Shown: positions 27,509-61,508 of the stretch, piece after piece
Numbering within the stretch: the first letter of the stretch is position 1
Layout: each line of letters starts with the position of its first letter
Source of the DNA: Candidatus Spyradenecus sp.
GTDB lineage: Bacteria > Verrucomicrobiota > Verrucomicrobiia > Opitutales > UBA953
Direction of reading: 5' to 3'
Assembly (NCBI GenBank): GCA_045535075.1
Contig: JAZSKX010000017.1
Location: forward strand, 160,001 to 224,000
Length of the DNA stretch: 64,000 nt
Notes under the pieces: model-generated
Databases searched by the model: none
Told to the model about the DNA's origin: nothing
What the model saw: the letters and a program-made list of their open reading frames with translations, nothing else
Position numbers and translations under genes: made by a program

Positions 27509-27553
27509 TTACTGAATTTTTTCGCCACATTCGGAACAAAACTTGGAGTCCGT
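27509..27553 (-). pseudogene. Detached 3' end of the SPFH/zinc-ribbon gene
   Basis: Reads TDSKFCSECGEKIQ*, which completes the last zinc ribbon of the gene at 60393-61508 in frame once the prophage is removed. Confidence 0.9.
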
Positions 27554-27568
27554 TGATTTATCTAAAAA

Positions 27569-27705
27569 GGGTTGAGAAATGAGGAATAGCGTGGATTAGG
27601 CTTGAATAGCTTTTATTTGTGCGGGTTTGGAGAGTGCGGGGCAGGGAAGGGGAGTTTGAGAAATTTTCGTCCGTTTCTGTTAAATGTCGCAGAGGTTTGA
27701 GAAAT
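27569..27705 (+). repeat. Left-end transposase-binding repeats L1 (27569-27580), L2 (27653-27664), L3 (27694-27705)
   Basis: TTGAGAAAT core three times; 27685-27705 is a perfect 21-bp inverted copy of 60349-60369. Confidence 0.85.
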
Positions 27706-27724
27706 TTCGGGTAAACTTTGCAGG

Positions 27725-27934
27725 ATGAAAAACTCCAATAAAGCTGGGAATGAAATGTACTTCCCGATGACGGCTTCGCTTTGGCGAAGGTTGGTTAAAG
27801 ACGCAGGTCACGACGCGAAAAAACTCTGTATCGTGGCCTGTGCTTTATGCACAGAGCTCGAATATCGCGAAGCCATTTGTCGCGCTCGCAGGTGTTCCGT
27901 CCCGTACTTAATTGACGTCCGGATTCTCGGATAA
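27725..27934 (+). CDS. Hypothetical prophage left-end protein
   Basis: 69-aa ATG ORF in an otherwise empty gap, ending at a terminator hairpin. Confidence 0.45.
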   Translation: MKNSNKAGNEMYFPMTASLWRRLVKDAGHDAKKLCIVACALCTELEYREAICRARRCSVPYLIDVRILG

Positions 27935-27969
27935 AAAAACGCCCGCCGGAGATGTTTTCTCGGTGGGCG
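27933..27969 (-). terminator. Terminator of the prophage early operon
   Basis: CGCCCGCCGGAGA/TTCTCGGTGGGCG stem with an A7 run on + (U-tail on -). Confidence 0.65.
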
Positions 27970-27973
27970 CCCT

Positions 27974-28573
27974 TCAGTTGTTTCGGCTTGGGTGGCGTGT
28001 TTCCCATTTTCGTTTTGTATCGTATTTTTGTGCATCTTTTGGCGCGCAATATCGCCGGTTCCGACACGTGAAAACGAGGCACCACAACTGCTTAATGCTG
28101 GCGTTTTTGATTTCGCATCGGAATTGATCGAGGCAAATGTGTTCAGGATATTCGGGGAAGCTTAATCCTCGTTCGCGGCATGATTTTTCTAAGATGGCCA
28201 TGACGGTTGCATATTCTGCCGCCTGTGCTTTCATGAAGATTTCGCACCCTCGTTCCGGATTGTATATGCCAACGAAGTGTGCAAGCACGAACGGATAATC
28301 CTTTTGAGTTAGTTTTTTGAACGAATTTGGCGGCATTTCCCCGTGCTTGCAACGCCCTCGCATTACGTTTGCAATCTCTCTGCGCCGCCAATATTCCGCC
28401 AGTTTTGTCTTTGTGATCATGTGAGGTCCGGCAAACGGGTCGTCTTCGTCGTGCGGAGTCTGATCCCACAAAAAATCCCGCAGAGAATTAAGCTCGTCTG
28501 CGGGAACGGAGGCAAAGGCTTTGCTTGCCTCTGCCCCCAAGGTTTGGAGTTGTTTCGGAGAAAGACAGCTCAT
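27974..28573 (-). CDS. Phage early protein, possibly GemA/gp16-like
   Basis: Position after gam; SFKKLT and ASIKQLWCLV helical segments resemble GemA. Confidence 0.45.
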   Translation of the reverse strand: MSCLSPKQLQTLGAEASKAFASVPADELNSLRDFLWDQTPHDEDDPFAGPHMITKTKLAEYWRRREIANVMRGRCKHGEMPPNSFKKLTQKDYPFVLAHFVGIYNPERGCEIFMKAQAAEYATVMAILEKSCRERGLSFPEYPEHICLDQFRCEIKNASIKQLWCLVFTCRNRRYCAPKDAQKYDTKRKWETRHPSRNN

Positions 28574-29097
28574 CGCGAAGCCTCGTCTTTGGGAGTTTCT
28601 TCGAGTTTGGGTTCGATGTAGAACTTTTCGTTTTGGCGAATCTCAAGCCCTACTTCGCGTAGCCATTCCGGCGAGATTTCTTTACGTCGAAACGCGGACA
28701 GAATTGCCTCCTTTGAAACGGATTCTTTCGTTGCGACAAAGCGCACTTCCCCGCGAGATTGAATTACTTTCAGGGAGCGTCCGAGCGTCCATCCGCCGAT
28801 GGTTGCTACGGTCGGTGTTCCTGTTCGGTGACCGATTACTCCGCATGGAAAATCGACGGATTTTTTGTCTGCCGGAAATTCGTCCGGATTGTCCATTGCC
28901 CAACCTTCGATGAGTTTGGCGTGCGTTTTGGCCTTTTGCTTCAGGATCTCAATCCGAGACTCGAACTTTTCTTTGATTGCGATGAGTTCTTTATTCATCT
29001 CGGCGTCGAGCGCGTTGATTTGGTTTTGAGTTTCTGCATACTTACGCACCTCTTCGGCGCATTGGTTGCGTGTGATTTTTACATGTGTTGTAGCCAT
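28570..29097 (-). CDS. Mu Gam-like host-nuclease inhibitor
   Basis: N-terminal coiled coil, KKSVDFPCGVIGHRTG, KESVSKEAI and GLEIRQNEKFYIEP. Confidence 0.9.
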   Translation of the reverse strand: MATTHVKITRNQCAEEVRKYAETQNQINALDAEMNKELIAIKEKFESRIEILKQKAKTHAKLIEGWAMDNPDEFPADKKSVDFPCGVIGHRTGTPTVATIGGWTLGRSLKVIQSRGEVRFVATKESVSKEAILSAFRRKEISPEWLREVGLEIRQNEKFYIEPKLEETPKDEASR

Positions 29098-29101
29098 GAT
29101 T

Positions 29102-29263
29102 TTAGTTGTTTAAGAAGAAATGTTCGATAATCCAAAGCACTCCGAGAAACGGTAGTGCGAGCAAGACGGGAATCAGAACGGTGAGGAGGGCCAAGAGCAG
29201 GCACGAGGTTGCCGGGACACGTACAGTCACGTTCGTTCTTTTCGGCTTAATTTCAGATATCAT
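29102..29263 (-). CDS. Small phage membrane protein
   Basis: 53-aa ORF with a long hydrophobic helix; start overlaps the MuB stop. Confidence 0.55.
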   Translation of the reverse strand: MISEIKPKRTNVTVRVPATSCLLLALLTVLIPVLLALPFLGVLWIIEHFFLNN

Positions 29264-30273
29264 TGCTTCAGCCTTTCGCGTTCGGACTTTGCGAGGAGCA
29301 CATGATCCCACGTCATTGCTACACCTTTTTTGGTCGCAATTCCTGCCGCCATACGCAAAACGGTCAACCATACTCCGAGGCGGTCTTTATCGATGACTTC
29401 CTTTTGGGCTGCTTTTGCTTCTCCCTCTGCCGGAGGCAGACCGTACGCCGCCGCGAATCGTGCCAAGTCTGCCTCTGTCGGTACTTTGGGCGCGGTGTAT
29501 GCGTAAAGCTCTCGGCGCATTGTCTGCGACATTACTCCGGCAAATTCGCGATCCCGTAGTAGCTCCCGTCGAAAGATCTCCGTTGCCACGAGCGTTACGC
29601 CACATTGCGTTGTGTCGTAAATTTCCCGGATAAACTCGAAAATCTTTGCGTGAGTCACGTTGATTCGCGTTTCGGTCATGATTGCTTGGTGTGCTTCATC
29701 CACGATGAGGACGTCGTTCCGGCGCAACTTCTCCAAAATGAACTCACGGCGGTCAAAGTGGCTCATTGTGCGCGGCGCTCCGAGCTGTCGGCTTAGCCGA
29801 TGTACAAAGCTCCGGAGCGTTGGCGAACTTGGCATGCGCACAAGCACCGTTGTCTCCTTGTTTTCCCGTGCATACGCTTCGAGCGCTGTAGTTTTTCCGA
29901 TTTGACTTTCGCCGAAGACAAACGTGATTCGGTTGTATCGTCGCGCACGTTCCACGGCGGACCAAATCTTTTTGGAAAGCGCAGTTTCCACATAAGCGAG
30001 CGGTTCAGTGCCTTCGCGTTCTCGAGAGATTTCAAGAAAGCGCTTGGCACGGGCGCAGAATTTATCCTTGCCGGCGTTGTGCGTTCCGGAGAAAACCTTA
30101 TGCACGGTTGTTGCGTCCATGCCGATCCCCTCGGCAACTTCGTCGAGTGAGAGGTGTTTTTCCTGTGCAAAATCGTAAAGCGCAAGAATCGTTTCCCGAT
30201 GCGGGACGGGTAGGTCTCGTACGGCGTCCGTGACCTTCCCGCGTTCAATTTTGATGATGTTGGTTTCGTCCAT
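29260..30273 (-). CDS. MuB-like transposition AAA+ ATPase
   Basis: N-terminal HTH, Walker A GESQIGKT, Walker B LIVDEAH; follows the transposase. Confidence 0.92.
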   Translation of the reverse strand: MDETNIIKIERGKVTDAVRDLPVPHRETILALYDFAQEKHLSLDEVAEGIGMDATTVHKVFSGTHNAGKDKFCARAKRFLEISREREGTEPLAYVETALSKKIWSAVERARRYNRITFVFGESQIGKTTALEAYARENKETTVLVRMPSSPTLRSFVHRLSRQLGAPRTMSHFDRREFILEKLRRNDVLIVDEAHQAIMTETRINVTHAKIFEFIREIYDTTQCGVTLVATEIFRRELLRDREFAGVMSQTMRRELYAYTAPKVPTEADLARFAAAYGLPPAEGEAKAAQKEVIDKDRLGVWLTVLRMAAGIATKKGVAMTWDHVLLAKSERERLKQ

Positions 30274-30302
30274 AATGTTTGTTTTTGTAGGTTTAGAAAT
30301 GA

Positions 30303-32312
30303 TTACCAAAGCGTATCTTCGTCCTCTTCGTTCCATCCGGTTCTGAGGACTTTCTGCGGTGTGGAAATTCCGTCGAAATCGTCGTCGCTTTCGAGAAGCA
30401 CTTTTTCGCGTTCCAACGTCTTTGTTTGTTCAAATGCAGCTAAGAATTTGTCTGCTTCGGCTGTTCTGCTGTCGAGGGCGAGGCGTTCTTTGCGGCGAGC
30501 GTCTCGCTTGGGTTTCGCAAATGCATTTGCTGAACGAATTGCGTCACGGAACGAGCCTTCTGCTATTCCGCACGCTCGCTCAATCGCTGCCTTGTCGTTG
30601 GCATCGAGGCGCTCAATTGCATCGGTCGATTCTCCGATGTAACGTCCTCTGCCGTCGTAAAATAAAACGCCGTGCGCTCCGTTCCACATCGGGTTGAAGA
30701 ACACGAAAACTTCCGTTCCCGGAAGTAGATCTTCCACCGAGCTTTCCCGCCGGATCCTTGCCAAGAATTTATGGTAAATCCCGTAATCGTCCTTGAAGTC
30801 CACGGTCTTGCTCTGCGCGACTTTAACCCGCTTCCAATACTTCCGGCAAATAAACGCCGCCTCCCGGTAATCCGCGACGACCAATTCGCGCCTTCCTCGA
30901 TTAAATACTTCTCTCGGCGACATCTTACGCACCCGATAAAGCGCCGGATCCCCGCAAACCAAAGAGACGACTTCGCGGCTCGTCCCTGCCGTCACCGGGC
31001 GAAAATCGTCCGCCGTGTCCACGCGAAATTCCGCAATCTCGCGCCCGTGCCAATCCTCCAGGTTGTGTTCCGTTCGCGTGTTTACTTGTTCTACGATTTC
31101 GCAGTAACGCGCATTGTACGCATCCCAACCGAGCTCGCCTACGCTGATGCTATCGAGGAGGCCCGGAGGAAGAAATTTTGCCGCCTTTTTGTAGATACGT
31201 TCCCGCGCCTTAACGAGACCCTGAGTGTCCTCCGGAACGCTCCGGTTGTTCCCCGCATAAGCCGGAAGAATTGACGCCGCGTTGTGAATCAGCGAGTGTT
31301 GGCTTTCCAGGGCCGCTTTGTGTTTAAAGTTCCCGCGAGCCTGCCCGGCGAATCCGCCGTCAAACGCGCTCCCGCCCAGCATTGCGCCTCGCTCTACGCG
31401 CACGCGCCCGCCGCTCATACGAAGCAATGCCGCTTCCTGGTCGGCATCAATGGTTGCCGTCCCGTTTTCCACCTTCAACACACACCCGTCTTTGTGGTAA
31501 CCGATAGTCGTCAAAAGCGTCACCAAAAGCAGCGCCATCTCGTGTCCCTGCAACTGCTCGTTCGTCCCGTCTTTGCGCGGCAGGCGCGGACGCACTCCGT
31601 ACAGGACCCGGCACGACGAACTTTCATCAATGCACGCGAACTCAAGCGGACGTACCGGTGCGGCAAATCCTGCCACGCTCGCGTAGTGATCATGCCACAT
31701 GTCGTCGAATTGGTACACCATGCCCGGCGCCGCTGCACGCTTTACGCAAACCGGAGCTTTAAACTCGCGTGCCGCCAATGCTCCGACCTTAACAGCCGTC
31801 GTCTCTGCCTTCGTCGGCAGGTATTTTGACCGAGCCAAATTTTTATAAGTCCAACCGGCAGGAAGATCCGTTCCCGCATCACGTTCCGGACAGCTTGCGT
31901 ATCCGGGAATCGCGGCCGACGAATCGCCTTTGCGCCAGGAATTGTAGCGGCGGACCAATTCATGATGAGCCTGCCGCACGCCGCGCCTTACCCCGAACTG
32001 AAGTACCAGCGTCTTCCAAAATTGAATAAAATTCGCCGGCAGCGGCTCCAGCCCGCAACGATAATTGAGCGTTAACGCACGCCAGCCGTCCACGCGCCAT
32101 GCCGCATAAATCCGCTGGAGGGATTTGGCTGAGATAGCCCGGTCGCCGACTGCCGACAAGCGCTCCGAAAGTTCCTGCCAGTACGCCATTTTCCTGCCCC
32201 CGGCATAGAGTTCCAACGACTGCATGGCCGGTTCCAACAACGCAATCCGTTTCACGTTCACGTCACTGACTTGCAGCCGCACGTCGGCTTCTTCTTCTGT
32301 AAACAATTTCAT
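30303..32312 (-). CDS. MuA-like DDE transposase
   Basis: 669 aa; YQFDDMWHD, VENGTA and KAALES catalytic-like motifs, MSPREVF; upstream of MuB. Confidence 0.85.
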   Translation of the reverse strand: MKLFTEEEADVRLQVSDVNVKRIALLEPAMQSLELYAGGRKMAYWQELSERLSAVGDRAISAKSLQRIYAAWRVDGWRALTLNYRCGLEPLPANFIQFWKTLVLQFGVRRGVRQAHHELVRRYNSWRKGDSSAAIPGYASCPERDAGTDLPAGWTYKNLARSKYLPTKAETTAVKVGALAAREFKAPVCVKRAAAPGMVYQFDDMWHDHYASVAGFAAPVRPLEFACIDESSSCRVLYGVRPRLPRKDGTNEQLQGHEMALLLVTLLTTIGYHKDGCVLKVENGTATIDADQEAALLRMSGGRVRVERGAMLGGSAFDGGFAGQARGNFKHKAALESQHSLIHNAASILPAYAGNNRSVPEDTQGLVKARERIYKKAAKFLPPGLLDSISVGELGWDAYNARYCEIVEQVNTRTEHNLEDWHGREIAEFRVDTADDFRPVTAGTSREVVSLVCGDPALYRVRKMSPREVFNRGRRELVVADYREAAFICRKYWKRVKVAQSKTVDFKDDYGIYHKFLARIRRESSVEDLLPGTEVFVFFNPMWNGAHGVLFYDGRGRYIGESTDAIERLDANDKAAIERACGIAEGSFRDAIRSANAFAKPKRDARRKERLALDSRTAEADKFLAAFEQTKTLEREKVLLESDDDFDGISTPQKVLRTGWNEEDEDTLW

Positions 32313-32314
32313 GA

Positions 32315-32659
32315 TTAGTCCGGACGTATGTCCTCTGTTTGGTTCTTATATTGCTCCATATCGAAGAGGGTTGGAGTGTTGTCGAATTGCTCAAAAACAA
32401 GTCCGTCCTCCTGGCGCTCGATGCAGGCTCGATAATAGTCGTCGATGTAAACCCGGTGATGGTTGCGGCGAGCAGACCCTTTCCCGAAGCGCGACGATAC
32501 GTTGAACACACGCATCCGCTTTTTCTCCAAAATATGGAACACCTGGGCCCGCGCCACGCCCCACTTCTCGGCAACGGCACTCACCGTCACCATGGTCACG
32601 CCTACCGGAAAACGCAGGCGCTCCCAAACCCGCTCCCGCAATTCGTTTAAATTTTCCAT
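32315..32659 (-). CDS. Putative HTH DNA-binding protein
   Basis: VTVSAVAEKWGVARAQVFHIL excisionase/HTH-like segment. Confidence 0.6.
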   Translation of the reverse strand: MENLNELRERVWERLRFPVGVTMVTVSAVAEKWGVARAQVFHILEKKRMRVFNVSSRFGKGSARRNHHRVYIDDYYRACIERQEDGLVFEQFDNTPTLFDMEQYKNQTEDIRPD

Positions 32660-32689
32660 ATATTTGCCTTTCGTTCGTTGTTAATTCGA

Positions 32690-32914
32690 TTACAGATCCC
32701 TAAAGATTCCCCGGTTCTCCGCCCGCAAACGCAGTTGCCTCCAGTAGTCCTCGCGACCGTAGTCCACTTCGCTTTCGCAGAGACCGGCGATACCCATGCA
32801 CCAATAAAAATCTTTCCGGTCGCGGTCGATTCGGAGGAATTCGCTCCGCAAAAACGCATCGTCCGGTTCCCGTTCCCATGCCCAGCTCATCTCTACAATT
32901 TCAACGTCCTGCAT
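32690..32914 (-). CDS. Hypothetical phage protein
   Basis: Packed in the early operon. Confidence 0.6.
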   Translation of the reverse strand: MQDVEIVEMSWAWEREPDDAFLRSEFLRIDRDRKDFYWCMGIAGLCESEVDYGREDYWRQLRLRAENRGIFRDL

Positions 32915-32917
32915 GAT

Positions 32918-33103
32918 TCAGCTTCCCCGCTTCGCCAGGCTTCCGCAGCCGAGTCGCACGCGAAGCTCCTCCGCCGAGAGATAAATCAAGTCCCCGTTAA
33001 GCTTGCGGAAGACGACTTCGCCCATCTTCCAGCGCACCTGCACCACGCGCAACTCGCCCAGCGTGCCGTCCATCCAGCATTGCCCTCGCGCAAAATGCCT
33101 CAT
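32918..33103 (-). CDS. Hypothetical phage protein
   Basis: ATGA overlap with the upstream ORF; RBS GGAGGTG. Confidence 0.6.
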   Translation of the reverse strand: MRHFARGQCWMDGTLGELRVVQVRWKMGEVVFRKLNGDLIYLSAEELRVRLGCGSLAKRGS

Positions 33104-33336
33104 CGCACACCTCCCGTCGCCGCCGACTCAACATCCGCCAAAATCGCGTCCAGCTCGGCGCCGATACGCGTCATGCGTTCGTCCATCGCCTCAAGCTCTT
33201 CCCGCATCGCGGCAAAGTCCGCCTGTACGCCGTCGAGTATCACACACAAGGCGACACCCCAAAATTCAATCGCCACCGCGCAAAAAATCAGCCACACGGC
33301 AGGATCGTGAATCCATTTCAAAAGTTTCGTTTTCAT
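33100..33336 (-). CDS. Hypothetical phage membrane/coiled-coil protein
   Basis: TM helix followed by a coiled coil. Confidence 0.6.
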   Translation of the reverse strand: MKTKLLKWIHDPAVWLIFCAVAIEFWGVALCVILDGVQADFAAMREELEAMDERMTRIGAELDAILADVESAATGGVR

Positions 33337-33355
33337 AGGTAAAATGCTTACGGAG

Positions 33356-33586
33356 TTATGGCATTTGCGAGGGAATGCGCTTCTTGCCCGAGGCCGGAAG
33401 CTTTCTTACCGCGTAGCGCTTACGCGGACGACGCGGCGTCAAATCGCCTAAGCCGGGGACATGGCGGCTGATGATTGCCCGCAAAAAATCCGATACCGTC
33501 ATGCCGCCGCGGTCTGCCGCCTTGCGGATTTTCTCGCCCTGTGTGCGCGGGATGACCAATCCCACCGTGATGTTCGTGTTGCCCAT
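33356..33586 (-). CDS. Ribbon-helix-helix DNA-binding protein
   Basis: ITVGLVIP strand plus EKIRKAADRGGMTVSDFLRAII (CopG/Arc pattern). Confidence 0.7.
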   Translation of the reverse strand: MGNTNITVGLVIPRTQGEKIRKAADRGGMTVSDFLRAIISRHVPGLGDLTPRRPRKRYAVRKLPASGKKRIPSQMP

Positions 33587-33606
33587 TTGCTTGCTTCTCT
33601 TGAGTG

Positions 33607-34449
33607 TTAATCTTTCAGCAGCGCCAGCTTCGCTTCCGCCGCTCGTACCTTCGCCGCCAATGCATTGCGGTAATCCGTCCAAAGCTTCCGCAGGACCCCC
33701 TGCGGCGCCACGCCGCTCGCGGCTTCCAAGCGCTCAAAGCTTCGGGAGATCTCCGCCTTCGTCGCCCGAAGCTCCAGCGGCAGGTTCATCTGTTTCCACA
33801 CAGCGTCGTCGCTCCCGGCGCTGTCCGGCTCGCCCTCCGTCAGCTCTGCATGCGCCGCATCCGCCTCCGCCTTCAACACGCCGCGCTTCTGCTCCGCCAC
33901 CTCTTCGTTTTCCGCATCGGCTTCCACCCGACGCAAGTCCCGAATCAGCTGGCTTATCGAACGCCCCGCGACCCACGTCCTCAGCGTCAGGCCGCCTTTC
34001 CCGCCGCTCGCCACGCCAAGCAAGGTGCCTTCCGCATCAAACCCCTCCGTGCCCTGCAGGCATTTGGCAAGCTCCCCGCTCTGGGGATGCAAGGGCTCCG
34101 TCGCCGCTTGCAAATAGCGCCGACCCAGCCAACGGTAACGACGCATGTTCCGCTCACTTCCCGCCCCGAAAACACGCGAACAATACGACGGAAATGACTC
34201 TGCGTTAAAACCTTGGACACGCGTGTCCAAGGTTTTTGTGGATGGCCGCCCTCCGACGTTCTCGGCGCAAATTGCCGCGAATTTTGCCTCCAGCATCAGC
34301 CCGAGGCGGACGGCTTCGGTGACAAAGTCCGCCTGCTTGGTTGCTACGCGTTCGGCCTGGTCCGCAAGCATCTCGTCCTGCAGCTTCCTGCCGATTTTTT
34401 CAAGTTTCGCCGCGATGTCCTCGCGGTAGATGTCTGTTACGATTTCCAT
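33607..34449 (-). CDS. Hypothetical phage protein (DUF3102-like region)
   Basis: AVRLGLML...SERNMRRYRWL pattern typical of Mu-like early proteins. Confidence 0.6.
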   Translation of the reverse strand: MEIVTDIYREDIAAKLEKIGRKLQDEMLADQAERVATKQADFVTEAVRLGLMLEAKFAAICAENVGGRPSTKTLDTRVQGFNAESFPSYCSRVFGAGSERNMRRYRWLGRRYLQAATEPLHPQSGELAKCLQGTEGFDAEGTLLGVASGGKGGLTLRTWVAGRSISQLIRDLRRVEADAENEEVAEQKRGVLKAEADAAHAELTEGEPDSAGSDDAVWKQMNLPLELRATKAEISRSFERLEAASGVAPQGVLRKLWTDYRNALAAKVRAAEAKLALLKD

Positions 34450-34455
34450 AAAAGA

Positions 34456-34644
34456 TTAAAGAGCCTGGGGGGCGCTTTGCTTGCGCCGGCGGCGCCGGCA
34501 ACGCTCTAAAAGGCACTCCGCCAAGGCACGTTCGTGGCGATTGTCGGTCTTGCCTTCCAAAAACACCGCGACCCACAAATCGTTCGTCCGCCCTGCCAGC
34601 TCCTCGTCGCTCATGCCCGCAATGTCCGATGTTTTCATGCCCAT
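34456..34644 (-). CDS. Hypothetical phage protein
   Basis: Packed ORF in the early operon. Confidence 0.55.
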   Translation of the reverse strand: MGMKTSDIAGMSDEELAGRTNDLWVAVFLEGKTDNRHERALAECLLERCRRRRRKQSAPQAL

Positions 34645-34922: not shown

Positions 34923-35056
34923 AATCAACTTCGGTTAAACCATGTTTAACTAAAAAAGAACAACATCGGTTTACCAAAGTCAAGAGGTTTTCAAAAAAAA
35001 TTTAATTAGTTTTGAAAAACTTTGCGTTCTCTGTGGCTCTGCGAGAGAATATTTTT
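34923..35056. promoter_or_regulatory. Divergent control region (putative lysis/lysogeny switch)
   Basis: AT-rich; leftward -35 TTGACT at 34983-34978; repeats TCGGTTAAACCA (34931) and TCGGTTTACCA (34966); TTTTCAAAA/TTTTGAAAA inverted repeat. Confidence 0.65.
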
Positions 35057-36103: not shown

Positions 36104-36187
36104 CCCGCACCCCCAAAAATAAAAAACACCTCGCCTCTGCTTTTTTTATGCGTTTTATTTAACTTAAATTTTCTCCCCTCATTCCTG

Positions 36188-50201: not shown

Positions 50202-50202
50202 A

Positions 50203-55258: not shown

Positions 55259-55549
55259 TACTGATAGCTTCCATGCCGTGCCGACCTTGTATGCGGATGC
55301 GGCGAATCAGAACAGCCCGAGCGCCCGATTGCCGCGCACTTCGGCTATATTTCCGAAGCGGACATTTGCATACGCATGGAGCAGATGACGGGTAATCCGT
55401 TTGCGCTTTCGTCGCAAAGCGAATACGCGAAAGCCGTTGCCGAATATTGCGAGAAAAACGGCATTAAGATTCACGAGCGGCGAATTATTTACAATTTGGA
55501 CGGGTCTCGCGTTGACGGCGAGAACCCGCCGAAACCTATTGAATGCTAA
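55242..55549 (+). pseudogene. Chimeric scar: fibre-gene 5' fragment joined to a second glycosyltransferase 3' fragment
   Basis: 55242 MKFYIDTDSFHAVPTLYADA resembles the fibre start MKIYIDTNTFPASPALYADA; another frame reads IAAHFGYIS (compare GT FAAHYGYIT) to the stop at 55549. Confidence 0.75.
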
Positions 55550-55553
55550 TCCA

Positions 55554-58139
55554 ATGAAAATCTATATCGACACTAACACATTTCCCGCGTCGCCCGCGCT
55601 TTACGCGGACGCGGAAAAAACGAAGCCGTTACCGCGCATCATCCCCCTTGTGCAAGGCTTTCGCGGCGAAATCGAGGTTTGTTTTCTCGGCGAGCTTGCG
55701 CCGAAGACCGGCGACGGCTTAACGCTTGCCATGCGCCCGTATGGCACTGGCGCTGATGTCGTGCGAACGGAAACCGTTGCAGTTGTTGCCGGCGCGGAAG
55801 CCGGCGTAGCCGCAAGCGCCAAAGTCAGCCTCGCCGTAAACACGGACGCCCTGCAGGCGGCAATCGGCACACGCGAAACGCTGAACGTGCTTTGCGGCGT
55901 TATCGTGACTGACGACGCGGCGGCATTCCCGACGCGGATGGAATGGCAAATCGTATTTGCTGTTGCGGCTTCGGCGCTTCCTAATGGCGTTCCCGCGCCG
56001 GAAATCTCGCCAAGCGCAGTTGATGTGCTACGCGACGAAATCAACGCCGTCAAAACCGACCTTGCGAAAAATTACGTCAACCGAAATTCGTCGCAGGATG
56101 TTGCCGGCGTTAAATCGTTTTTGCAGGGGATTAACATCGGCAGCTCGGCAAATCCGTTTGGGGTTCCGGAATGGCGAATCGCAAGCGGCGGAATCACTTA
56201 CTTCGGCGGCGGCATGTCGATGCCCGGCAACACGAAAATTTTGCCGCAAGGCGTGTCGTCGGATGTTGTTAGTGCTCGTGCCGTAAAAGGATTAACGTCC
56301 TCGGCGGGCGAGATTCTAATCCCGGCAAAAACGGGAACGTTTGCGCTCGTTAGCGACGTGGAAAGCGCCGTCGGAAAAGCGCTCACGTCTGCCTACAAAT
56401 ACGCCGGGCAAGTGCCGACGGAGGCGGATTTGCCCGAAAGCGCAGAAAACGGCGACGTTTATGATGTTGCCGACACCGGAAAGAATTACGCTTACGACGC
56501 GAAACTCGGGCGCTGGGATGCTCTCGGAGGGACGATAAATTACGCAACAGTAGCCGAGGTGCAGGCATTGCAGTCAGCCGTCGAAGCCAAGGCGAACGAC
56601 GCGGACGTGGTGCACAGGAGCGGGAATGAGACGATTAATGGAGAAAAGAGATTTACAGCAGATATTATTGTTGACGAAGGTTATTTTCTTAAGTCTCGCT
56701 TGGGTAGGTTGTTAATTGGAAGTGAAACATCAGGGGAGAGATTTGCATCTCTTGACCACCTTTCCGTTCTCCCCCTCGGAACGACTACCGCTCTTGGCGC
56801 TCCTGCCTACGGCTTGCACGTTTCCGCGATTGGCGGCTTGCAACTGTTTGGGACGCACTTCCTGAACGGAGACATTTGGACGGACGATTCCGTTAAAATG
56901 GTAAAGAGCAATGTCTCCCTTTACTCGACCGACAAGGCTTCAATCGGATTTGACTACGCTAACGAAGTAGTTTTCCGCACGATGCCGAACGACGGCACGG
57001 AGGCAACGTACAAGCTTGAGGCGTGGAAATGGGACGATGATTCGCATTCGTCGAAATCAGCGAGCGCGGGAGTTAGGTTCCTCAAGCCGTCACAGAAAAG
57101 CGCGCTTGAGGCAACGTCTGTGTTGAACATGCAGGAAGGGGACGCACGGTGGTGGCGAGCCGGAAGTAGCTCTATTCCGATTAAACCTTCCGGGCAAAGC
57201 TCGCCCGCAGCTATATTTCTTAGTACGTATTATTCCGGTGAAAGTTTTGAGCTTTCTTTTGCAGGTCTTGAAAAAGACGGAGACGGTTACCCAGACGTCA
57301 CTTTTAAGTTCCCTTTCACGGGTGGGCAGATTGCGCTGAAATCGGACATTCCTAACATGTCGTTTGTTGACGGCGTGTTTGTTATGCGCGACAGTGTTTC
57401 GTTGAACAATAATACAGACATTGGCAATGCCGGCATTTTGTATGGGTTCGACTTCACGTATCAATATCGTTTCCCCGAGAAAACCGGCACGGTCGCGCTG
57501 TTGGACGACATCGTTCTTGGCTCGGGCGCGTCGGGGGTTAGTCCAGCCGGAGCTACAACAGGGAGCAACGTCGCCATAGGTCCGGAAGCTAAATCGCACG
57601 GTGGTGGGACAGGGTCGGAGACGGTCGCCATTGGCGCTCGGTCGAGTGCTACCGGAATGTGCTCAACAGCACTCGGGCGAGATACTATTGCGAGCAACTG
57701 TCTGGCCGTTGCGTTGGGAGCCACTGCAAACGCGACGGGCAATCAGTCAATCGCGATTGGCTGTTTTGCGATGGCAAGCGCATATAACACCATTGCGACT
57801 GGCGAAAATGCAACCGCAAGCGAAGGTGGAGCTGTCGCGATTGGTAGCAATGCGAGCGCGACAAATACAAACTCCCTCGCGATTGGACCCAACGTGAAGT
57901 GCTTCTTGGCGAAGAGCTTTCTTATTGGCGCGAAAAACGACATTTCACTTGAAGGAAACAAGCTTTGTATTGGCGCAATCAATGATGACAATCCGGGATT
58001 CTTGTTTGTGGAGCAGGATGCGAACGCCACCATCACGGGCGTCCGCATTTCCAAAGAGAACTTCATGGCAATGCTCAAGCAGTTCGGCGGTGAGGATTTC
58101 ACAGCGACGAAACCTGCGGAGGAACAAGCAACGGAATAA
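55554..58139 (+). CDS. Tail fibre/receptor-binding protein with YadA-like head repeats
   Basis: 861 aa; VHRSGNETING.KRF fibre motifs; three P.KTGT.AL..D.-type repeats; about 14-residue AIG..A.A repeats near the C-terminus. Confidence 0.82.
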   Translation: MKIYIDTNTFPASPALYADAEKTKPLPRIIPLVQGFRGEIEVCFLGELAPKTGDGLTLAMRPYGTGADVVRTETVAVVAGAEAGVAASAKVSLAVNTDALQAAIGTRETLNVLCGVIVTDDAAAFPTRMEWQIVFAVAASALPNGVPAPEISPSAVDVLRDEINAVKTDLAKNYVNRNSSQDVAGVKSFLQGINIGSSANPFGVPEWRIASGGITYFGGGMSMPGNTKILPQGVSSDVVSARAVKGLTSSAGEILIPAKTGTFALVSDVESAVGKALTSAYKYAGQVPTEADLPESAENGDVYDVADTGKNYAYDAKLGRWDALGGTINYATVAEVQALQSAVEAKANDADVVHRSGNETINGEKRFTADIIVDEGYFLKSRLGRLLIGSETSGERFASLDHLSVLPLGTTTALGAPAYGLHVSAIGGLQLFGTHFLNGDIWTDDSVKMVKSNVSLYSTDKASIGFDYANEVVFRTMPNDGTEATYKLEAWKWDDDSHSSKSASAGVRFLKPSQKSALEATSVLNMQEGDARWWRAGSSSIPIKPSGQSSPAAIFLSTYYSGESFELSFAGLEKDGDGYPDVTFKFPFTGGQIALKSDIPNMSFVDGVFVMRDSVSLNNNTDIGNAGILYGFDFTYQYRFPEKTGTVALLDDIVLGSGASGVSPAGATTGSNVAIGPEAKSHGGGTGSETVAIGARSSATGMCSTALGRDTIASNCLAVALGATANATGNQSIAIGCFAMASAYNTIATGENATASEGGAVAIGSNASATNTNSLAIGPNVKCFLAKSFLIGAKNDISLEGNKLCIGAINDDNPGFLFVEQDANATITGVRISKENFMAMLKQFGGEDFTATKPAEEQATE

Positions 58140-58237
58140 CAGATAGAGGAGAAGCTTTATGTCGGAAATCAATGTTTTGACAGCGCACGCAACGTCGTGC
58201 GTGAAGCAGACAAAAAACGTAACAGGAGAAAGAAATA

Positions 58238-58612
58238 ATGAAACAACTTATTCAAATAAACGAAGGCAATGAGGCCCCGGCGGAATTTTTAGCCGAAGTG
58301 CGGAATGGGGTCGTCCTCTCGCTTACGATTGCAGAGGATGCGACTCAAGAAGAGCGTCCCGTTACAATCGAACATGGGAATGAAGCCGGGGAATCGGTTT
58401 TGGTTTGGACTTGGCGGGAGACTCACGTCGATGACATCAGGGTTGTTGAATACGGGGCGTTGGTAACACTTTTGATTCGCTTGAAATACTCAGCAGACGC
58501 GGTCGAAGCAGCACATTGCAATGCGGCGGCGGGGCAAAATGCAGATATTGACGAAATCAATGCGTGGCGTGCCAAAGTCAAAGCGTTTGCCCGGACGATT
58601 TTCCCTGCTTGA
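58238..58612 (+). CDS. Putative tail fibre assembly chaperone
   Basis: LIRLKYSADAVEA..INAWRAKVK; follows the fibre gene. Confidence 0.55.
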   Translation: MKQLIQINEGNEAPAEFLAEVRNGVVLSLTIAEDATQEERPVTIEHGNEAGESVLVWTWRETHVDDIRVVEYGALVTLLIRLKYSADAVEAAHCNAAAGQNADIDEINAWRAKVKAFARTIFPA

Positions 58613-58644
58613 CTTGGGAGCATAATCGAGCGACACCAGTGGGC

Positions 58645-59469
58645 ATGATAGACAACACAATCACTTTGCCGTGCTTTCCGTATCCTGGCGGAAAAACAAA
58701 GATGCGTGAACGCCTTGTAGCGATGTTCCCGACACACAAAACCTATGTTGAGCCGTTTGCGGGAGCCTTGGCCGTTTTACTCGGGAAACCGCGTGTGAAA
58801 TGTGAGGTTGTCAACGATCTTAATGAAGAGCTCGTGATGTTTTTCCGCTATGTGCGGTTGCATGGAGATGCGCTTCTTGCGGAGATTGACGCTGTTCTCG
58901 CCGCTCGCCGGGAGTTTGAGTTTTTCCGCTCCCGTGAGCCGGATACGGAACTTGGCAAAGCCTTAGCGTTTTTCTTTCGACAAATGCTTTCATTTGGCGG
59001 AATTGGCGAGTCGTTTTCGCGGCGCAAGGATAAAGCGCCTCATTGGGGAAGCAACGTGATTAAGCAACGCATTCTTGCAGTCCGAGAACGGTTGCGCCGT
59101 GTCTATATTGAATGCAAGCCGGCAAACGAGGTGATCGCATTCTACGATACTCCGGAAACGTTCTTTTTCGTGGATCCTCCGTACATTTGTGCTACCCCAG
59201 CTCGCTATAAGGCCTTTACGCCGGAGCAGATGCAAAGCTTGAGGGATACGCTTTCCCTATGTAAGGGAGCGTGGATGCTGACTTGCGACAATTCTGCTAC
59301 CTGTCGTGAGATCTTTTCCGGTTTTAGGACGACCGAGATGTCGACCCTGTATTCGCTCGCGAATGCTGCCCCGAAGCTGGTTTCCGAGCTTGTTGTTTTT
59401 TCTAAAAATTTCCCTATTCAGAATGAAACCTGTTTTCCCGTATCCGGGCGGCAAATCGAAGCTGCTTAA
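58645..59469 (+). CDS. DNA adenine methyltransferase (D12 class), copy 1
   Basis: YPGGK, YVEPFAG, EVVND and DPPY motifs. Confidence 0.92.
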   Translation: MIDNTITLPCFPYPGGKTKMRERLVAMFPTHKTYVEPFAGALAVLLGKPRVKCEVVNDLNEELVMFFRYVRLHGDALLAEIDAVLAARREFEFFRSREPDTELGKALAFFFRQMLSFGGIGESFSRRKDKAPHWGSNVIKQRILAVRERLRRVYIECKPANEVIAFYDTPETFFFVDPPYICATPARYKAFTPEQMQSLRDTLSLCKGAWMLTCDNSATCREIFSGFRTTEMSTLYSLANAAPKLVSELVVFSKNFPIQNETCFPVSGRQIEAA

Positions 59470-60268
59470 ATCCATTCTTCCGTTTATCCCGTGCGCGGAA
59501 ATCCGAACCTATATTGAGCCGTTTGCGGGCGGGCTTGCCGTGCTTTTGGCTCACGAAGAGCCATTTCCTCGGGAAGTCGTCAATGATGCGAATGCAGGGC
59601 TGATGGCGTTTTATCGAATGGCCGCATTGCATCCGGACGCGCTTCTTACGGAGCTTTCTGCCGTGATCGCGGCACGGCGGGATTTTGAAATGGAAGTACG
59701 CTTTCCGGATTCGAGGACAGAACTTGGACGTGCTGCTCGGTGGTACTGGATGACGAAGCAGAGCTTTGGCGCACAGGGAGAGCATTTTGGTCGCGGGAAA
59801 GATGAATTTCATGGCGTGGACCTCGAAAAAGACGCTCCGGTAATTCGTCGGCTTTCTGAGCGTCTGAAATCGACAATTTTTCGGAATACGGATGCGTGTG
59901 AGGTCATTCGGGAGTTCGATGCCCCGGACACGTTCTTTTTTCTCGATCCTCCGTATATCGAATGCGGCGACACTGCCTACGATGCGTTCACAGAAGATGA
60001 CATGAATCGTCTTCGCGAGACGCTTGTGTCGAGCAAAGGAAAATGGCTTTTGACCTGTGACGATTCTCCGGCAACGCGCCGTGTTTTCTCCGGATTTCGC
60101 GTGCGTGAGAATCTGATTAGGTACTCTCTCGCCAAAACCAAATCCGGGAAAATTTCCGGGGAGTTAATGGTTTTTTCGGAGAATCTCGCTACCGATTTTC
60201 TTGGCAAAACTTCGAGGCTGTTTCCTCTCTCACGCACCTCGAAAGTAGCTACCGCGCAAACCGCATAA
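59423..60268 (+). CDS. DNA adenine methyltransferase (D12 class), copy 2
   Basis: YPGGK, YIEPFAGG, EVVND and DPPY motifs. Confidence 0.92.
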   Translation: MKPVFPYPGGKSKLLKSILPFIPCAEIRTYIEPFAGGLAVLLAHEEPFPREVVNDANAGLMAFYRMAALHPDALLTELSAVIAARRDFEMEVRFPDSRTELGRAARWYWMTKQSFGAQGEHFGRGKDEFHGVDLEKDAPVIRRLSERLKSTIFRNTDACEVIREFDAPDTFFFLDPPYIECGDTAYDAFTEDDMNRLRETLVSSKGKWLLTCDDSPATRRVFSGFRVRENLIRYSLAKTKSGKISGELMVFSENLATDFLGKTSRLFPLSRTSKVATAQTA

Positions 60269-60348
60269 AAGGGCGTGCAATTTCACTGCACACCCTCTGC
60301 AAAAACTCCGCATCGGCGTTGCTTTTTCAGCTTTTTTTGGGGGGGGGT

Positions 60349-60397
60349 ATTTCTCAAACCTCTGCGACAAATTTCTCAAACCAGCCGAGCATTTACA
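60349..60397 (-). repeat. Right-end transposase-binding repeats R2 (60349-60360) and R1 (60371-60382), with terminal CA
   Basis: ATTTCTCAAACC twice, 22 bp apart, inverted relative to the left-end sites. Confidence 0.88.
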
Positions 60398-61508
60398 CCG
60401 TTGAAAGTTCCTTCCCGCATTTAGAACAAATCGTTTGAAGCTTGTTTCCACAGTTCGGACAGAATTTAGATTTCGCGGGAACAGGAGCGTTACATTTCGG
60501 ACAAAACGTATTTTCTGATCGAGGCGTCTCATTTATAAAAGCACTCCCGCAGTTTGAGCAAAACTTTGTCCCTGTCGGGTTTTGTGCCCCGCACTTCGCA
60601 CAAGCAAGCGTTGATGCCGAGAAATTCATCGGATTTCCTATTTGTGTCGCACCAGCCCCCATCGCTGTTCCCAACCCGGCGCCGAGTGCGATCCCCATTC
60701 CGGCCCCCATGAGATTTGCGGACATTCCGCCCGCACCTTCATTCCCCGCCGCAACCTGTAATGTATCGAAGGAACGCATTTGCCGATAGTCGTAGCCGAC
60801 GATATCCATTTCTGCTCGCTGGGCGAGTGCATCTCGAAGTTTTATGACGGCGGGGTCTTCTTCGTCTGTCGAAATTGATGCAATGGCGAAGCGGCTCAAA
60901 CCTACACCGAATTCATCAAAAACTTCTGCCAGTTTTTGCGAAACTGCGTCAGCCAGTTCCGATTGGTGAGCAACAATATCTAGCACTGAAACGCTTTTCT
61001 GAGCGATGTATTGACCAATCAGAGTTTTCACTTCCATAACCAACATTCCTCGAAAGTGCTCGCTCAATGTTGATTTGGTAAATGCCGGAAGCGTTCCCGC
61101 AAACTTTGTCAGAAACTTTCGAGAATTTTTAATCGTCATCCCGTACTGCCCGAACGCGCGAACGGGAATCATGATTTTGTAAAGCGGATCCCGCACTTGA
61201 ATCGCAGTCGGAGTTCCCCACTTCAAATCCAATGCATAAGCTTTTTGAACAAAATAAACTTCTGCTCGGAACGGACTCTTCCCGCCTGCAAACTGTGCAT
61301 TTACAAATTTCTCAAGAAAAGGAAAATTTTCGGTATTGAGTGTGTATGTTCCTGCCGAAAACGGTCCCTCGAAGCGCCCCCCAATTTGAACGAGTGCTTC
61401 TTGGGATTCTGCAACAATAAGGCGACTTAATGTCGTAAAATCTGTTTCCGGAAAACGACATGCAATAACGTTGGGCGCAAAACGCCACGAAATAACTTCA
61501 ACAGCCAT
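60393..61508 (-). CDS. SPFH/Band-7 protein with C-terminal zinc ribbons, truncated by the prophage
   Basis: LIVAESQEA, GTYTLNTEN.P, LKWGT, VRAFGQY and repeated CxxC; the stop codon is supplied by the prophage end (GTG TAA). Confidence 0.9.
   Translation of the reverse strand: MAVEVISWRFAPNVIACRFPETDFTTLSRLIVAESQEALVQIGGRFEGPFSAGTYTLNTENFPFLEKFVNAQFAGGKSPFRAEVYFVQKAYALDLKWGTPTAIQVRDPLYKIMIPVRAFGQYGMTIKNSRKFLTKFAGTLPAFTKSTLSEHFRGMLVMEVKTLIGQYIAQKSVSVLDIVAHQSELADAVSQKLAEVFDEFGVGLSRFAIASISTDEEDPAVIKLRDALAQRAEMDIVGYDYRQMRSFDTLQVAAGNEGAGGMSANLMGAGMGIALGAGLGTAMGAGATQIGNPMNFSASTLACAKCGAQNPTGTKFCSNCGSAFINETPRSENTFCPKCNAPVPAKSKFCPNCGNKLQTICSKCGKELSTV

What the first reader, a model, noticed from the sequence alone, without database searches (positions are those of the whole stretch)
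27550..60401. Complete Mu-like prophage with base-exact ends and an apparent 4-bp target-site duplication
Seen: left junction ggagt-CCGT|TGATTTATC (TG at 27554) and right junction CATTTACA|CCGT-tgaaag (CA at 60396-60397). The first TTGAGAAAT core occupies positions 19-27 from both ends, which fixes the left end at 27554. Removing the element plus one CCGT restores the host frame. The left end has L1, an 84-bp offset, then L2 and L3; the right end has tandem R1 and R2. A 21-bp perfect inverted repeat links 27685-27705 and 60349-60369. Known: Mu makes 5-bp duplications (B3 6 bp) and has a similar L1-spacer-L2 layout. Inference: a divergent transposable phage lineage with a 4-bp stagger. Caveat: host sequence after the right CCGT also begins TGA, so 5-7 bp readings are formally possible but would lose the terminal TG.
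Basis: partly seen in the sequence, partly recalled or inferred. Interest (0 to 1): 0.85.

Follow-up and report, generated by a model that had tools for sequence, protein, structure and literature searches.

The report
Mu-like prophage with 4-bp footprint
This is a complete jumping (Mu-type) virus sitting in a gut bacterium's chromosome, and it and its relatives leave a 4-base rather than the textbook 5- or 6-base duplication where they insert.

Summary
A 32,844-bp transposable prophage (27554-60397, TG...CA) splits an SPFH/zinc-ribbon host gene and is flanked by CCGT.

This site alone is ambiguous, because the direct repeat is really 7 bp (CCGTTGA). Two results resolve it:
- Contigs from three other public studies carry the same phage (about 99% alike) next to three different flanks that break at or just outside 27554. 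A fourth contig starts at 27554. T, G and A are therefore phage bases, and the duplication here is at most 4 bp.
- In all 9 related elements where I could place both ends, the geometry-defined termini are flanked by a 4-bp repeat. In 5 of them no longer reading is possible.

The transposase has no Pfam, PDB-sequence or phage-collection match. Its predicted fold matches the MuA transpososome best (E 5e-16). The family occurs in 39 of 401 Verrucomicrobiota genomes sampled.

The 4-bp footprint is not unique to this lineage. I read the same in E. coli prophage Sp18, whose transposase is a canonical MuA type.

This is a new variant of a known kind, of moderate interest.

The parts
27550..27553 (.). 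Left copy of the 4-bp target-site duplication (CCGT)
   Evidence: The phage begins at 27554 in independent contexts.
27554..60397 (.). Transposable prophage, 32,844 bp, with 5'-TG...CA-3' ends
27570..27580 (+). L1, the outermost putative transposase-binding site (GGTTGAGAAAT), at positions 17-27 from the left end
   Evidence: Relatives show the same 16-nt distance to the terminus.
27654..27664 (+). L2 site GTTTGAGAAAT, 84 bp from L1
27695..27705 (+). L3 site GTTTGAGAAAT, 41 bp from L2. It is part of the 21-nt inverted repeat shared with R2.
28570..29097 (-). Gam-like DNA-end protection protein
   Evidence: PF07352, 3.5e-27; phrog_491.
29260..30336 (-). MuB-like AAA+ target-capture ATPase (AAA_22/TniB)
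   Evidence: (phrog_296, DNA transposition protein, 1.6e-28).
30303..32312 (-). Transposase, 669 aa, with a MuA/TnsB fold and no Pfam match. The conserved blocks are YQFDDMWHD, VENGTA and GNFKHKAALES.
   Evidence: no Pfam match; no PDB sequence match; fold; blocks.
32315..32659 (-). First gene of the leftward early operon, in the position of Mu ner. It has no family match.
   Evidence: A homologue sits in the same place in the C8 element.
38902..40083 (+). Head protease/scaffold-like protein
   Evidence: phrog_328, phrog_2976.
43110..43643 (+). Small terminase, Mu gp27-like
   Evidence: PF11985.
43647..45017 (+). Large terminase
45062..46564 (+). Mu-type portal protein
   Evidence: PF06074, 2.9e-48. 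(about 25% identity to the portals of SuMu and Mannheimia phage 3927AP2).
50790..52337 (+). Tape-measure-like tail protein
   Evidence: weak PHROG matches.
55401..58139 (+). Tail fibre/receptor-binding protein (BppL_N and YadA head repeats)
58564..60268 (+). Two Dam-type N6-adenine DNA methyltransferase ORFs (58564-59469 and 59306-60268) at the right end
60349..60359 (-). R2 site (ATTTCTCAAAC on the + strand)
60371..60381 (-). R1 site, 22 bp from R2 and 16 nt from the right terminus
60398..60401 (.). Right copy of the 4-bp target-site duplication (CCGT)
60398..61508 (-). 5' part of the interrupted host gene (SPFH/Band 7 domain plus double zinc ribbons)
   Evidence: PF13421, PF12773.
27509..27553 (-). 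3' end of the interrupted host gene. It encodes the last half zinc ribbon and the stop codon.

Best explanation
Window 27554-60397 is a complete transposable (Mu-type) siphovirus-like prophage of a gut Opitutales (Verrucomicrobiota) bacterium. It entered an SPFH/zinc-ribbon gene by DDE-type transposition with a 4-bp stagger.

**Proposed mechanism**
- A MuA-fold transposase (30303-32312) binds 11-bp sites of consensus GTTTGAGAAAT. Three sit at the left end: L1 at 17-27 nt, then L2 after 84 bp and L3 after 41 bp. Two sit in tandem at the right end, R2 and R1, 22 bp apart.
- The transposase pairs the two ends and nicks 3' of the terminal CA.
- With the MuB-like AAA+ protein choosing the target, it joins the two 3'-OH ends to target phosphates 4 bp apart on opposite strands.
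- Repair or replication of the gaps gives the CCGT duplication.

**Shown:** the ends, the sites and their geometry; the different insertion contexts of the same phage; the 4-bp repeats in 9 family members; and the fold of the transposase.

**Inferred:** that the 11-mers are the binding sites; the chemistry and the stagger itself; replicative transposition; headful packaging; and that E282 replaces the usual middle aspartate (D204-E282-E336).
For: 1. **Ends and sites.**
2. **Gene content.** The element has Gam, a MuB-like AAA+ protein, a Mu portal, gp27- and gp36-like proteins and a large terminase. No integrase was found among the 40 ORFs scanned.
3. **Transposase fold.** The model has mean pLDDT 77.8. 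The best Foldseek hits are the Mu transpososome 4fcy (E 5e-16) and the MuA core 1bco/1bcm (target TM-score 0.63-0.66), followed by TnsB, IstA and retroviral integrases.
4. **Left end.** Four runs from four studies hold 27554-31553 with few differences.
   - The X3 and X4 contigs run into unlike sequence exactly before 27554. Their flanks end ...CCTGTTC and ...GACAGC.
   - The X7 contig begins at 27554.
   - The X1 contig runs into unlike sequence before 27550.
   - T27554 is therefore phage DNA, and within the CCGTTGA repeat the duplication can be at most 4 bp.
5. **Right-end geometry.**
   - The terminus lies 16 nt after R1 in the C8 element, G123 and G262, and G001, G007 and G011.
   - In one metagenome element seen with two different flanks (L073 and L092), the flanks diverge exactly there. 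The L072 contig ends there.
   - Applied to the window, this rule gives 60397.
6. **4-bp repeats at termini placed by site geometry, not by the repeat.**
   - Exactly 4 bp: TCGG (G000:C8:20843-35300), AAAT (G007:C3) and GAAC (G011, contigs C14 and C16), CAGG (G123), and TAAA (G061:C10 with C71).
   - 4 bp, with a chance extension into conserved terminal bases: CCGT (window), CAAC (G001), ATAG (G262) and CATG (G061:C71).
   - In total 9 of 9. Four extended cases out of nine is about what random flanks would give.
7. **Host gene.** The host reading frame and its zinc ribbon are restored when the element and one repeat copy are removed.
Against: - No experiment was done. Site binding, cleavage and the 4-bp stagger are all inferred from sequence.
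It rests on the conserved 16-nt geometry and the ...TTACA terminus of relatives.
- The right-hand flanks of the X1, X3 and X4 insertions were not seen, so no second duplication of this same phage was measured.
- Two of the nine pairs join ends that lie on different contigs (G011 C14/C16, and G061 C10/C71). The G061 pair has one mismatch in the overlap.
- Ends could not be located in many other relatives: 9 further genome regions, 4 IMG/VR contigs and several MAG contigs. The 9 are those my motif heuristic could solve, which favours elements built like this one.
- The transposase has no detectable sequence similarity to MuA. There was no Pfam match in 18 members at E <= 1, no PDB sequence match at E <= 1, and hhalign against the Sp18 transposase gave a probability of 0.4%.
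Confidence: 0.9

Rival explanations
1. The duplication is 5-7 bp (CCGTT, CCGTTG or CCGTTGA). The phage would then start at 27555-27557 without a terminal TG, as in a normal 5/6-bp Mu- or B3-type event.
For: The flanking direct repeat really is 7 bp. Published transposable phages give 5 or 6 bp (PMC8705779, passages read).
Against: - In one search the same phage lies beside three other flanks with T27554, G and A retained. The X3 and X4 contigs break exactly at 27554, and the X7 contig starts there.
- The left ends of relatives all begin TGA or TG.
- Five relatives have repeats that cannot be read as more than 4 bp.
Confidence: 0.03
2. The ends and the 4-bp scar are genuine, but the prophage is a dead remnant that can no longer transpose or form particles.
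For: - Most ORFs have no family match, and no lysis gene or major capsid protein was recognised.
- The same genus holds several deleted derivatives with intact ends: G000:C8 (14.5 kb), G001:C91 (18.9 kb) and G007:C3 (26.2 kb).
Against: - Near-identical copies (about 99% alike over 4 kb) sit at three or more other sites in gut metagenomes from four studies. That implies recent movement.
- All the expected modules are present in open frames: transposition, Gam, terminase, portal, protease, tail and fibre.
Confidence: 0.12
3. The element is a site-specific integrating prophage or island, and CCGT is a minimal att core.
For: In G061 two related copies lie just downstream of tRNA genes. X1 also has CCGT next to the left end.
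Against: - No integrase or recombinase was found among the 40 ORFs scanned.
- The same phage has different flanks in X1, X3 and X4.
- The nine family insertions lie in unrelated sites with different 4-mers.
- The transposase has a MuA fold and is paired with a MuB-like ATPase.
Confidence: 0.01

Closest known systems
Escherichia phage Mu (MuA/MuB, attL L1-L3, attR R1-R3)
   Same: - Transposition is the mode of integration.
- The termini are TG...CA.
- The attL-type end next to the transposase gene has one outer site, a gap, then two inner sites. The attR-type end has tandem sites 22 bp apart. (Mu's own site coordinates are recalled, not from a call.)
- It has a MuB-like AAA+ partner, Gam, and a Mu-type portal, gp27 and gp36.
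- The transposase fold matches 4fcy and 1bco best.
   Different: - The duplication is 4 bp, not 5 bp.
- The transposase has no detectable sequence similarity to MuA and no Mu Pfam domains.
- The putative middle catalytic residue is Glu, in an ENG motif, instead of Asp (inferred).
- The early operon is transcribed towards the nearby end, not away from it.
- No tail-sheath gene was recognised.
- The head protease and nearby head genes lie before the terminase and portal genes.
B3-type transposable phages and the Leptospira transposable prophages (PMC8705779; passages read)
   Same: They are transposable prophages of 36-40 kb recognised by a short flanking duplication. The terminal dinucleotides vary: TA-TA ends in Leptospira, and AG/CT, TA and CG ends in this family.
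   Different: Those give 6-bp duplications and have B3/Tn552-family transposases. This family gives 4 bp. tblastn of the transposase against 50,697 phage records found nothing, even at E <= 5.
Prophage Sp18 of E. coli O157:H7 Sakai (NC_002695.2, annotated 5040971-5079729)
   Same: By my reading of the record it has a 4-bp flanking repeat...GGTAT TAAA|TGTAACC... and ...GCGCTATA|TAAA GAACACC. It has tandem sites 22 bp apart at the right end (GGTATCAAA), and the outermost site lies 17 nt from each terminus.
   Different: - The Sp18 transposase carries the canonical Mu Pfam domains Mu-transpos_C and HTH_Tnp_Mu_1. Its B protein carries Phage-MuB_C.
- It shows no profile relation to this family.
- Its right terminus is TA.
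- Its gene order follows Mu, and it has a tail sheath.
- I found no paper stating its duplication length.
TnsB of Tn7 and CRISPR-associated transposons
   Same: It is the second-best structural relative of the transposase (7svw, 8ea3, 7pik; E 1e-9 to 2e-12). It likewise works with an AAA+ partner.
   Different: These are not phages. Tn7 makes 5-bp duplications (recalled). No TnsA, TnsD or Cas genes are present here.

Membership tests
Transposable (Mu-like) phages | Transposase with the DDE/RNase-H core and beta-barrel fold of MuA | tested here: met
   4fcy E 5e-16; 1bco/1bcm target TM-score 0.63-0.66. The model has pLDDT 77.8.
Transposable (Mu-like) phages | MuB-like AAA+ ATPase gene next to the transposase gene | tested here: met
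   29260-30336 matches AAA_22/TniB and phrog_296. The Phage-MuB_C domain was not detected.
Transposable (Mu-like) phages | Multiple transposase-site repeats in inverted orientation at the two ends | tested here: met
   three forward copies at the left end and two reverse copies at the right end. Binding itself was not tested.
Transposable (Mu-like) phages | Insertion at many unrelated sites | tested here: met
   the same phage lies beside three other flanks in three studies. The nine family insertions are in unrelated sites.
Transposable (Mu-like) phages | 5-bp (Mu) or 6-bp (B3) target-site duplication, called the hallmark scar in PMC8705779 | tested here: not met
   4 bp in 9 of 9 family members with both ends placed. 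Readings of 5-7 bp at this site are excluded.
Transposable (Mu-like) phages | Virion DNA carrying variable host DNA at both ends (headful packaging from integrated copies) | not testable with these tools
   Only contigs were available. The X7 contig starts exactly at 27554, which is compatible but is not proof.
MuA protein family as defined by Pfam (rve, Mu-transpos_C, HTH_Tnp_Mu) | Significant match to these profiles | tested here: not met
   One search found no family. In one search, none of 18 family members matched any of them at E <= 1. One search found no PDB chain at E <= 1.
Sp18-type Mu-like prophages of E. coli | Transposase homologous to that of Sp18 | tested here: not met
   hhalign probability 0.4%, E 0.14, using a single Sp18 sequence. 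The 4-bp scar and the 22-bp site spacing are shared.
BcepMu-like transposable phages | Homology of the transposase and of the structural genes | tested here: inconclusive
   tblastn of the transposase and of the portal (7 records, none a Burkholderia phage) against 50,697 phage records gave no BcepMu-type hit. I did not check whether such phages are in the collection. That BcepMu also has an inverted early region is recalled, not tested.

The most novel reading that the evidence does not exclude
The prophage may represent a distinct, phylum-wide family of transposable phages and their deletion derivatives in Verrucomicrobiota and neighbouring PVC lineages.

Its MuA-fold transposase is invisible to Pfam. 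It appears to use a D-E-E rather than a D-D-E active site, and its transpososome is built for an obligate 4-bp strand-transfer stagger.

Together with the unrelated Sp18 type (also 4 bp), Mu (5 bp) and B3 (6 bp), this would mean that stagger length has shifted repeatedly within a single fold. That would offer a natural series for working out what sets the spacing of the two active sites on target DNA.
Probability: 0.45. Interest if true: 0.65.

Novelty: new variant of a known kind. Interest (0 to 1): 0.5.

Why it matters
- **Prophage detection.** A 5- or 6-bp scar is used as a criterion when hunting for transposable prophages (PMC8705779). A lineage that leaves 4 bp, and whose transposase no domain library recognises, will be missed or mis-bounded by such searches. 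Yet it is present in about a tenth of the Verrucomicrobiota genomes sampled (39 of 401) and moves among ruminant and wildlife gut communities.
- **Mechanism.** Duplication length reports the spacing of the two active sites on the target DNA. A MuA-fold enzyme with a 4-bp stagger and an apparent Glu in place of the middle Asp is a useful comparison for the solved Mu and TnsB transpososomes.
- **Annotation.** Base-exact ends and site geometry (an 11-mer at 17-27 nt and 22-bp tandem spacing) give a recipe for annotating these elements.

Tried and rejected
- **Empty site.** The host gene's DNA was sought in 40 relatives. Only two short matches of about 80% turned up, so no empty site is available.
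- **Host flank in the laid runs.** The four runs gave no cover of 23554-27291, apart from one 18-nt piece. Lack of cover is not evidence, and I do not use it as such.
- **Viral contigs.** The R2-N11-R1 pattern gave 0 hits. Four IMG/VR relatives (30-35% identity) were cut at gene borders and showed no ends.
- **Fragmented genomes.** G030 is too fragmented to use.
- **Genome regions where no ends were found.** Repeat-based end finding failed on G137, G262 (second copy), G248, G239, G077, G092, G255, G179 and G089. One search gave only noise. These 9 regions say nothing either way.
- **MAG loci.** L021, L024, L029, L031, L022 and L036 gave no clusters worth following, and the L030 cluster read showed no end. 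The clusters in L020 and L023 were a repeat array and coding sequence, not ends. L033 has a left end only. L018 (60% identity) sits on too short a contig.
- **One unexamined hit.** G048:C92 matched the pattern with 2 mismatches. I did not examine it.
- **Metagenome pattern hits.** Of 25 loci, many look like operator or promoter arrangements, with a TATAAT-like box and a gene start just after the tandem. Only L071-L073, L086, L087 and L092 were used.
- **Sequence-level links.** Pfam, PDB sequences, tblastn against phage records and hhalign against Sp18 were all negative.
- **Technical failures.** rejected the 18-sequence alignment as too divergent. I repeated the scan with 10 sequences. One search timed out and was rewritten.
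- **Satellite idea.** I considered that the 14.5-kb C8 element is a phage satellite. I now rate it more likely a deletion derivative, because G001 and G007 hold complementary deletions of the same kind of phage.
- **Literature.** Searches for a 4-bp duplication in Mu-like or transposable phages found no paper stating one. Only open-access full text and bioRxiv were searched. No supplements were opened, including Table S2 of PMC8705779.

Full report
**1. The observation**

The sequence is as described.
- The left junction reads ...GGAGT CCGT|TGATTTATCTAAAAAGGGTTGAGAAAT.
- The right junction reads ...ATTTCTCAAACCAGCCGAGCATTTACA|CCGT TGAAAG.
- TTGAGAAAT occurs 6 times in the window against 1.30 expected, and no shuffle of 100 reached 6. 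Three copies are forward at 27572, 27656 and 27697. Two are reverse at 60349 and 60371. One stray copy lies at 61307.
- The full repeated unit is an 11-mer, GTTTGAGAAAT. L1 is the variant GGTTGAGAAAT. The outermost 11-mer occupies positions 17-27 from each end.
- The 21-nt perfect inverted repeat 27685-27705 / 60349-60369 is confirmed.
- The window is G000:C16:160001-224000 in a 1.95-Mb, 18-contig genome. Record titles of kin contigs place the genus in Opitutales, Verrucomicrobiota (L025, which is the same contig as G011:C14).

**2. What one site can and cannot tell**

The flanking direct repeat is really 7 bp, CCGTTGA. Removing 32,848 bp restores a 383-aa SPFH/Band 7 protein. Its third zinc ribbon, CSKCGKELSTDSKFCSECG, has the same C-x2-C-x10-C-x2-C pattern as the ribbon before it. 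That restoration is identical under every 4-7-bp reading, so it carries no information about duplication length. The question turns on whether T27554, G27555 and A27556 belong to the phage.

**3. The left end, from other insertions of the same phage**

No public run held both the host flank and the phage; the best share of sampled words was 0.39. I laid four runs from four studies on 23554-31553. All four hold 27554-31553, in contigs with 33, 21 or fewer differences over 2.6-4 kb.
- The X3 contig runs into unlike sequence exactly before 27554 (...GGGGATTCCTGTTC|).
- The X4 contig does the same (...GGCGACGACAGC|).
- The X7 contig starts at 27554.
- The X1 contig matches from 27550 and then runs into unlike sequence (...AAAAAACGTTC). 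It is a different site that happens to end in the same four bases.

The phage therefore begins at T27554. Within the 7-bp repeat the duplication can be at most 4 bp.

**4. The right end**

I could not lay reads a second time. The right end rests on conserved geometry: the terminus lies 16 nt beyond R1 wherever it can be checked.
- A metagenome scan for the R2-N11-R1 tandem gave 25 loci.
- One element appears with two different flanks, L073 and L092, which diverge exactly 16 nt after R1.
- The L072 contig ends at that base.
- L086 and L087 end ...TTACA at that distance.
- The relatives in section 5 behave the same way, with ...TTACA termini. The window reads ...CATTTACA.

This rule gives 60397, and hence a 4-bp duplication.

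**5. Independent insertions in the family**

The transposase has relatives of 99% to 45% identity in public assemblies that I could not fetch. More distant relatives occur in 3 of 61 kin genomes, counting G000, in 19 GTDB loci, and in 39 of 401 Verrucomicrobiota genomes at E <= 1e-20.

I placed termini by site geometry, 16 nt outside the outermost 11-mer, and only then read the flanks. The results:

| Element | Repeat | Reading | Notes |
|---|---|---|---|
| G000:C8:20843-35300 (14,458 bp) | TCGG | exactly 4 | transposase 34-37% and Gam 84% identical to the window's |
| G007:C3:2272-28491 | AAAT | exactly 4 | |
| G011, C14:73023 with C16:4423 | GAAC | exactly 4 | ends lie on two contigs |
| G123:C1:2494734-2528169 | CAGG | exactly 4 | |
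| G061:C10 left end with a right end at the edge of C71 | TAAA | exactly 4 | pairing inferred; one mismatch in the overlap |
| G001:C91:5389-24273 | CAAC | 4, repeat extends to 6 | extension falls in the conserved terminal CA |
| G262:C1:767622-801557 | ATAG | 4, repeat extends to 5 | extension falls in the terminal T |
| G061:C71:8201-11907 (3.7 kb) | CATG | 4, repeat extends to 5 | |
| the window | CCGT | 4, repeat extends to 7 | |

All 9 elements with both ends placed show a 4-bp repeat. In 5 of them no longer reading is possible. Four extended repeats out of nine is about the number expected from random neighbouring bases.

I could not place the ends of many other relatives (listed under Tried and rejected). 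The sample is therefore limited to elements built like this one.

**6. What the element is**

*Leftward early operon*
- a ner-position gene (32315-32659);
- the transposase (30303-32312);
- a MuB-like AAA+ protein (29260-30336);
- Gam (28570-29097);
- a further ORF at 27974-28573.

*Rightward genes*
- a ClpP-like protease and a head protease/scaffold protein;
- a gp36-like protein, a gp27-like small terminase and the large terminase;
- a Mu-type portal;
- a head protein with a C-terminal ADP-ribosyltransferase domain;
- a tape measure and a tail fibre;
- two Dam-type methyltransferases.

No integrase was found. The portal is about 25% identical to those of SuMu and a Mannheimia Mu-like phage.

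*The transposase*
- It has no Pfam match; none of 18 family members matched at E <= 1.
- It has no PDB sequence match.
- It has no tblastn match in 50,697 phage records, even at E <= 5.
- Its AlphaFold model (pLDDT 77.8) matches the Mu transpososome best (4fcy, E 5e-16; MuA core target TM-score 0.63-0.66). TnsB, IstA and retroviral integrases follow.
- Its invariant blocks are YQFDDMWHD, at the end of a strand; VENGTA, at the end of a strand; and GNFKHKAALES, in a helix. These sit where the catalytic D, D and E of RNase-H-fold transposases sit. That assignment is my inference, and the Mu motifs are recalled rather than taken from a call. The middle residue would then be Glu.

**7. Mechanism**

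The transposase most likely binds the 11-mers. The L1, gap, L2, L3 layout at the end next to its own gene, and the tandem R2-R1 two helical turns apart at the other end, follow the Mu plan. It then nicks after the terminal CA and joins the ends to target phosphates 4 bp apart, with the MuB-like ATPase delivering the target. The ends, sites, scars, mobility and fold are shown. Binding, chemistry, replication mode and packaging are inferred.

**8. Comparison with what is known**

PMC8705779 (passages read) states that Mu gives 5 bp and B3 gives 6 bp. It says this 5/6-bp scar is a key feature used to identify transposable prophages, and that TG-CA ends were universal until TA-TA ends were found in Leptospira. 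My literature searches found no paper that reports 4 bp for a Mu-like phage. Only open-access full text was covered, and no supplements were opened.

Earlier notes of this scan claimed 4 bp for another unannotated lineage (e1-3217313) and for Sp18-type prophages of E. coli (e1-544640 and others). I tested the Sp18 claim on the Sakai record. The flanks are ...GGTAT TAAA|TGTAACC... and ...GCGCTATA|TAAA GAACACC, which is a repeat of exactly 4 bp. The right end has 22-bp-spaced GGTATCAAA sites. The Sp18 transposase has the canonical Mu Pfam domains and shows no profile relation to this family.

The 4-bp footprint is therefore real here, but it is not exclusive to this lineage.

**9. Verdict**

The element is a new variant of a known kind: a Mu-type transposable phage with a sequence-orphan MuA-fold transposase and a 4-bp scar. 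It belongs to a family common in Verrucomicrobiota. My interest score is moderate, 0.5, for three reasons. The mechanism is the familiar one, the 4-bp scar also occurs in an E. coli prophage sequenced long ago, and nothing has been tested at the bench.

Noticed in passing
G000:C8:20843-35300 (loci L014, L016): A second, 14,458-bp element lies in the same genome, downstream of tpiA, with an exact TCGG duplication. It carries the transposition module (transposase 34-37% and Gam 84% identical to the window's), a C5 DNA methylase and unknown ORFs, but no recognisable head or tail gene. Its left end has six GTTTAGGAAAT sites, while its right end uses the window phage's GTTTGAGAAAT variant. It is probably a deletion derivative that could still move as a natural mini-element.
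   Followed up: partly
G001:C91:5389-24273 and G007:C3:2272-28491 (loci L174-L176): Same-genus genomes hold complementary deletion derivatives with intact ends and 4-bp scars. G001 keeps the B gene and the tail genes but lacks the transposase and head genes. G007 keeps head and tail genes but lacks the whole early region, and one of its termini reads CG instead of TG.
   Followed up: partly
G061:C71:8201-11907 (loci L065, L068) and G061:C10:40361: A 3.7-kb mini-element has both family-type ends (5'-AG...CT-3') flanked by CATG. It sits beside a full-length copy in the same genome, and both copies lie just downstream of tRNA genes. Its content was not examined.
   Followed up: no
G123:C1:2494734-2528169 and G262:C1:767622-801557: Two related 33.4- and 33.9-kb prophages in another genus of the same class sit in or beside a CRISPR array. 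The G123 copy splits a spacer between two GTTTCAATCCACGCACCCGTGAGGGTGCGAC repeats. The G262 copy lies next to the array's degenerate last repeat. This could be chance or selection; I did not test it.
   Followed up: no
window 46561-48024 (+): The ORF after the portal gene, in the position of a Mu F-like head protein, carries a C-terminal ADP-ribosyltransferase exoenzyme domain (PF03496, 6.5e-8, residues 303-476). It may be a virion-delivered modifying enzyme.
   Followed up: no
window 60333-60347; L020 about 15212-15228: A T7G8 homopolymer run lies immediately inside R2 at the right end. A similar T8G9 run lies in a distantly related Kiritimatiellia prophage locus. It may be a slippage-prone tract; its function is unknown.
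   Followed up: no
G000 genome-wide, e.g. L014 760-800: The words GCGTTCCCG / CGGGAACG are very frequent in this genome, often as the arms of terminator-like hairpins after genes. The X1 insertion of the phage lies beside such a word (...AAAAAACGTTC, then CCGT).
   Followed up: no
metagenome loci L070, L074, L076-L078, L080, L081, L083, L088, L089, L091, L093, L094: The same ATTTCTCAAAC-N11-ATTTCTCAAAC tandem occurs in many unrelated metagenome contigs, directly upstream of a TATAAT-like box and a ribosome-binding site with a start codon. It looks like an operator in a promoter rather than a transposon end.
   Followed up: no
window 36354-45017: The head protease/scaffold and gp36-like genes precede the terminase and portal genes. 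This is the reverse of the order in Mu and Sp18. A ClpP-like SDH protease gene (36354-37316) lies upstream of them.
   Followed up: no
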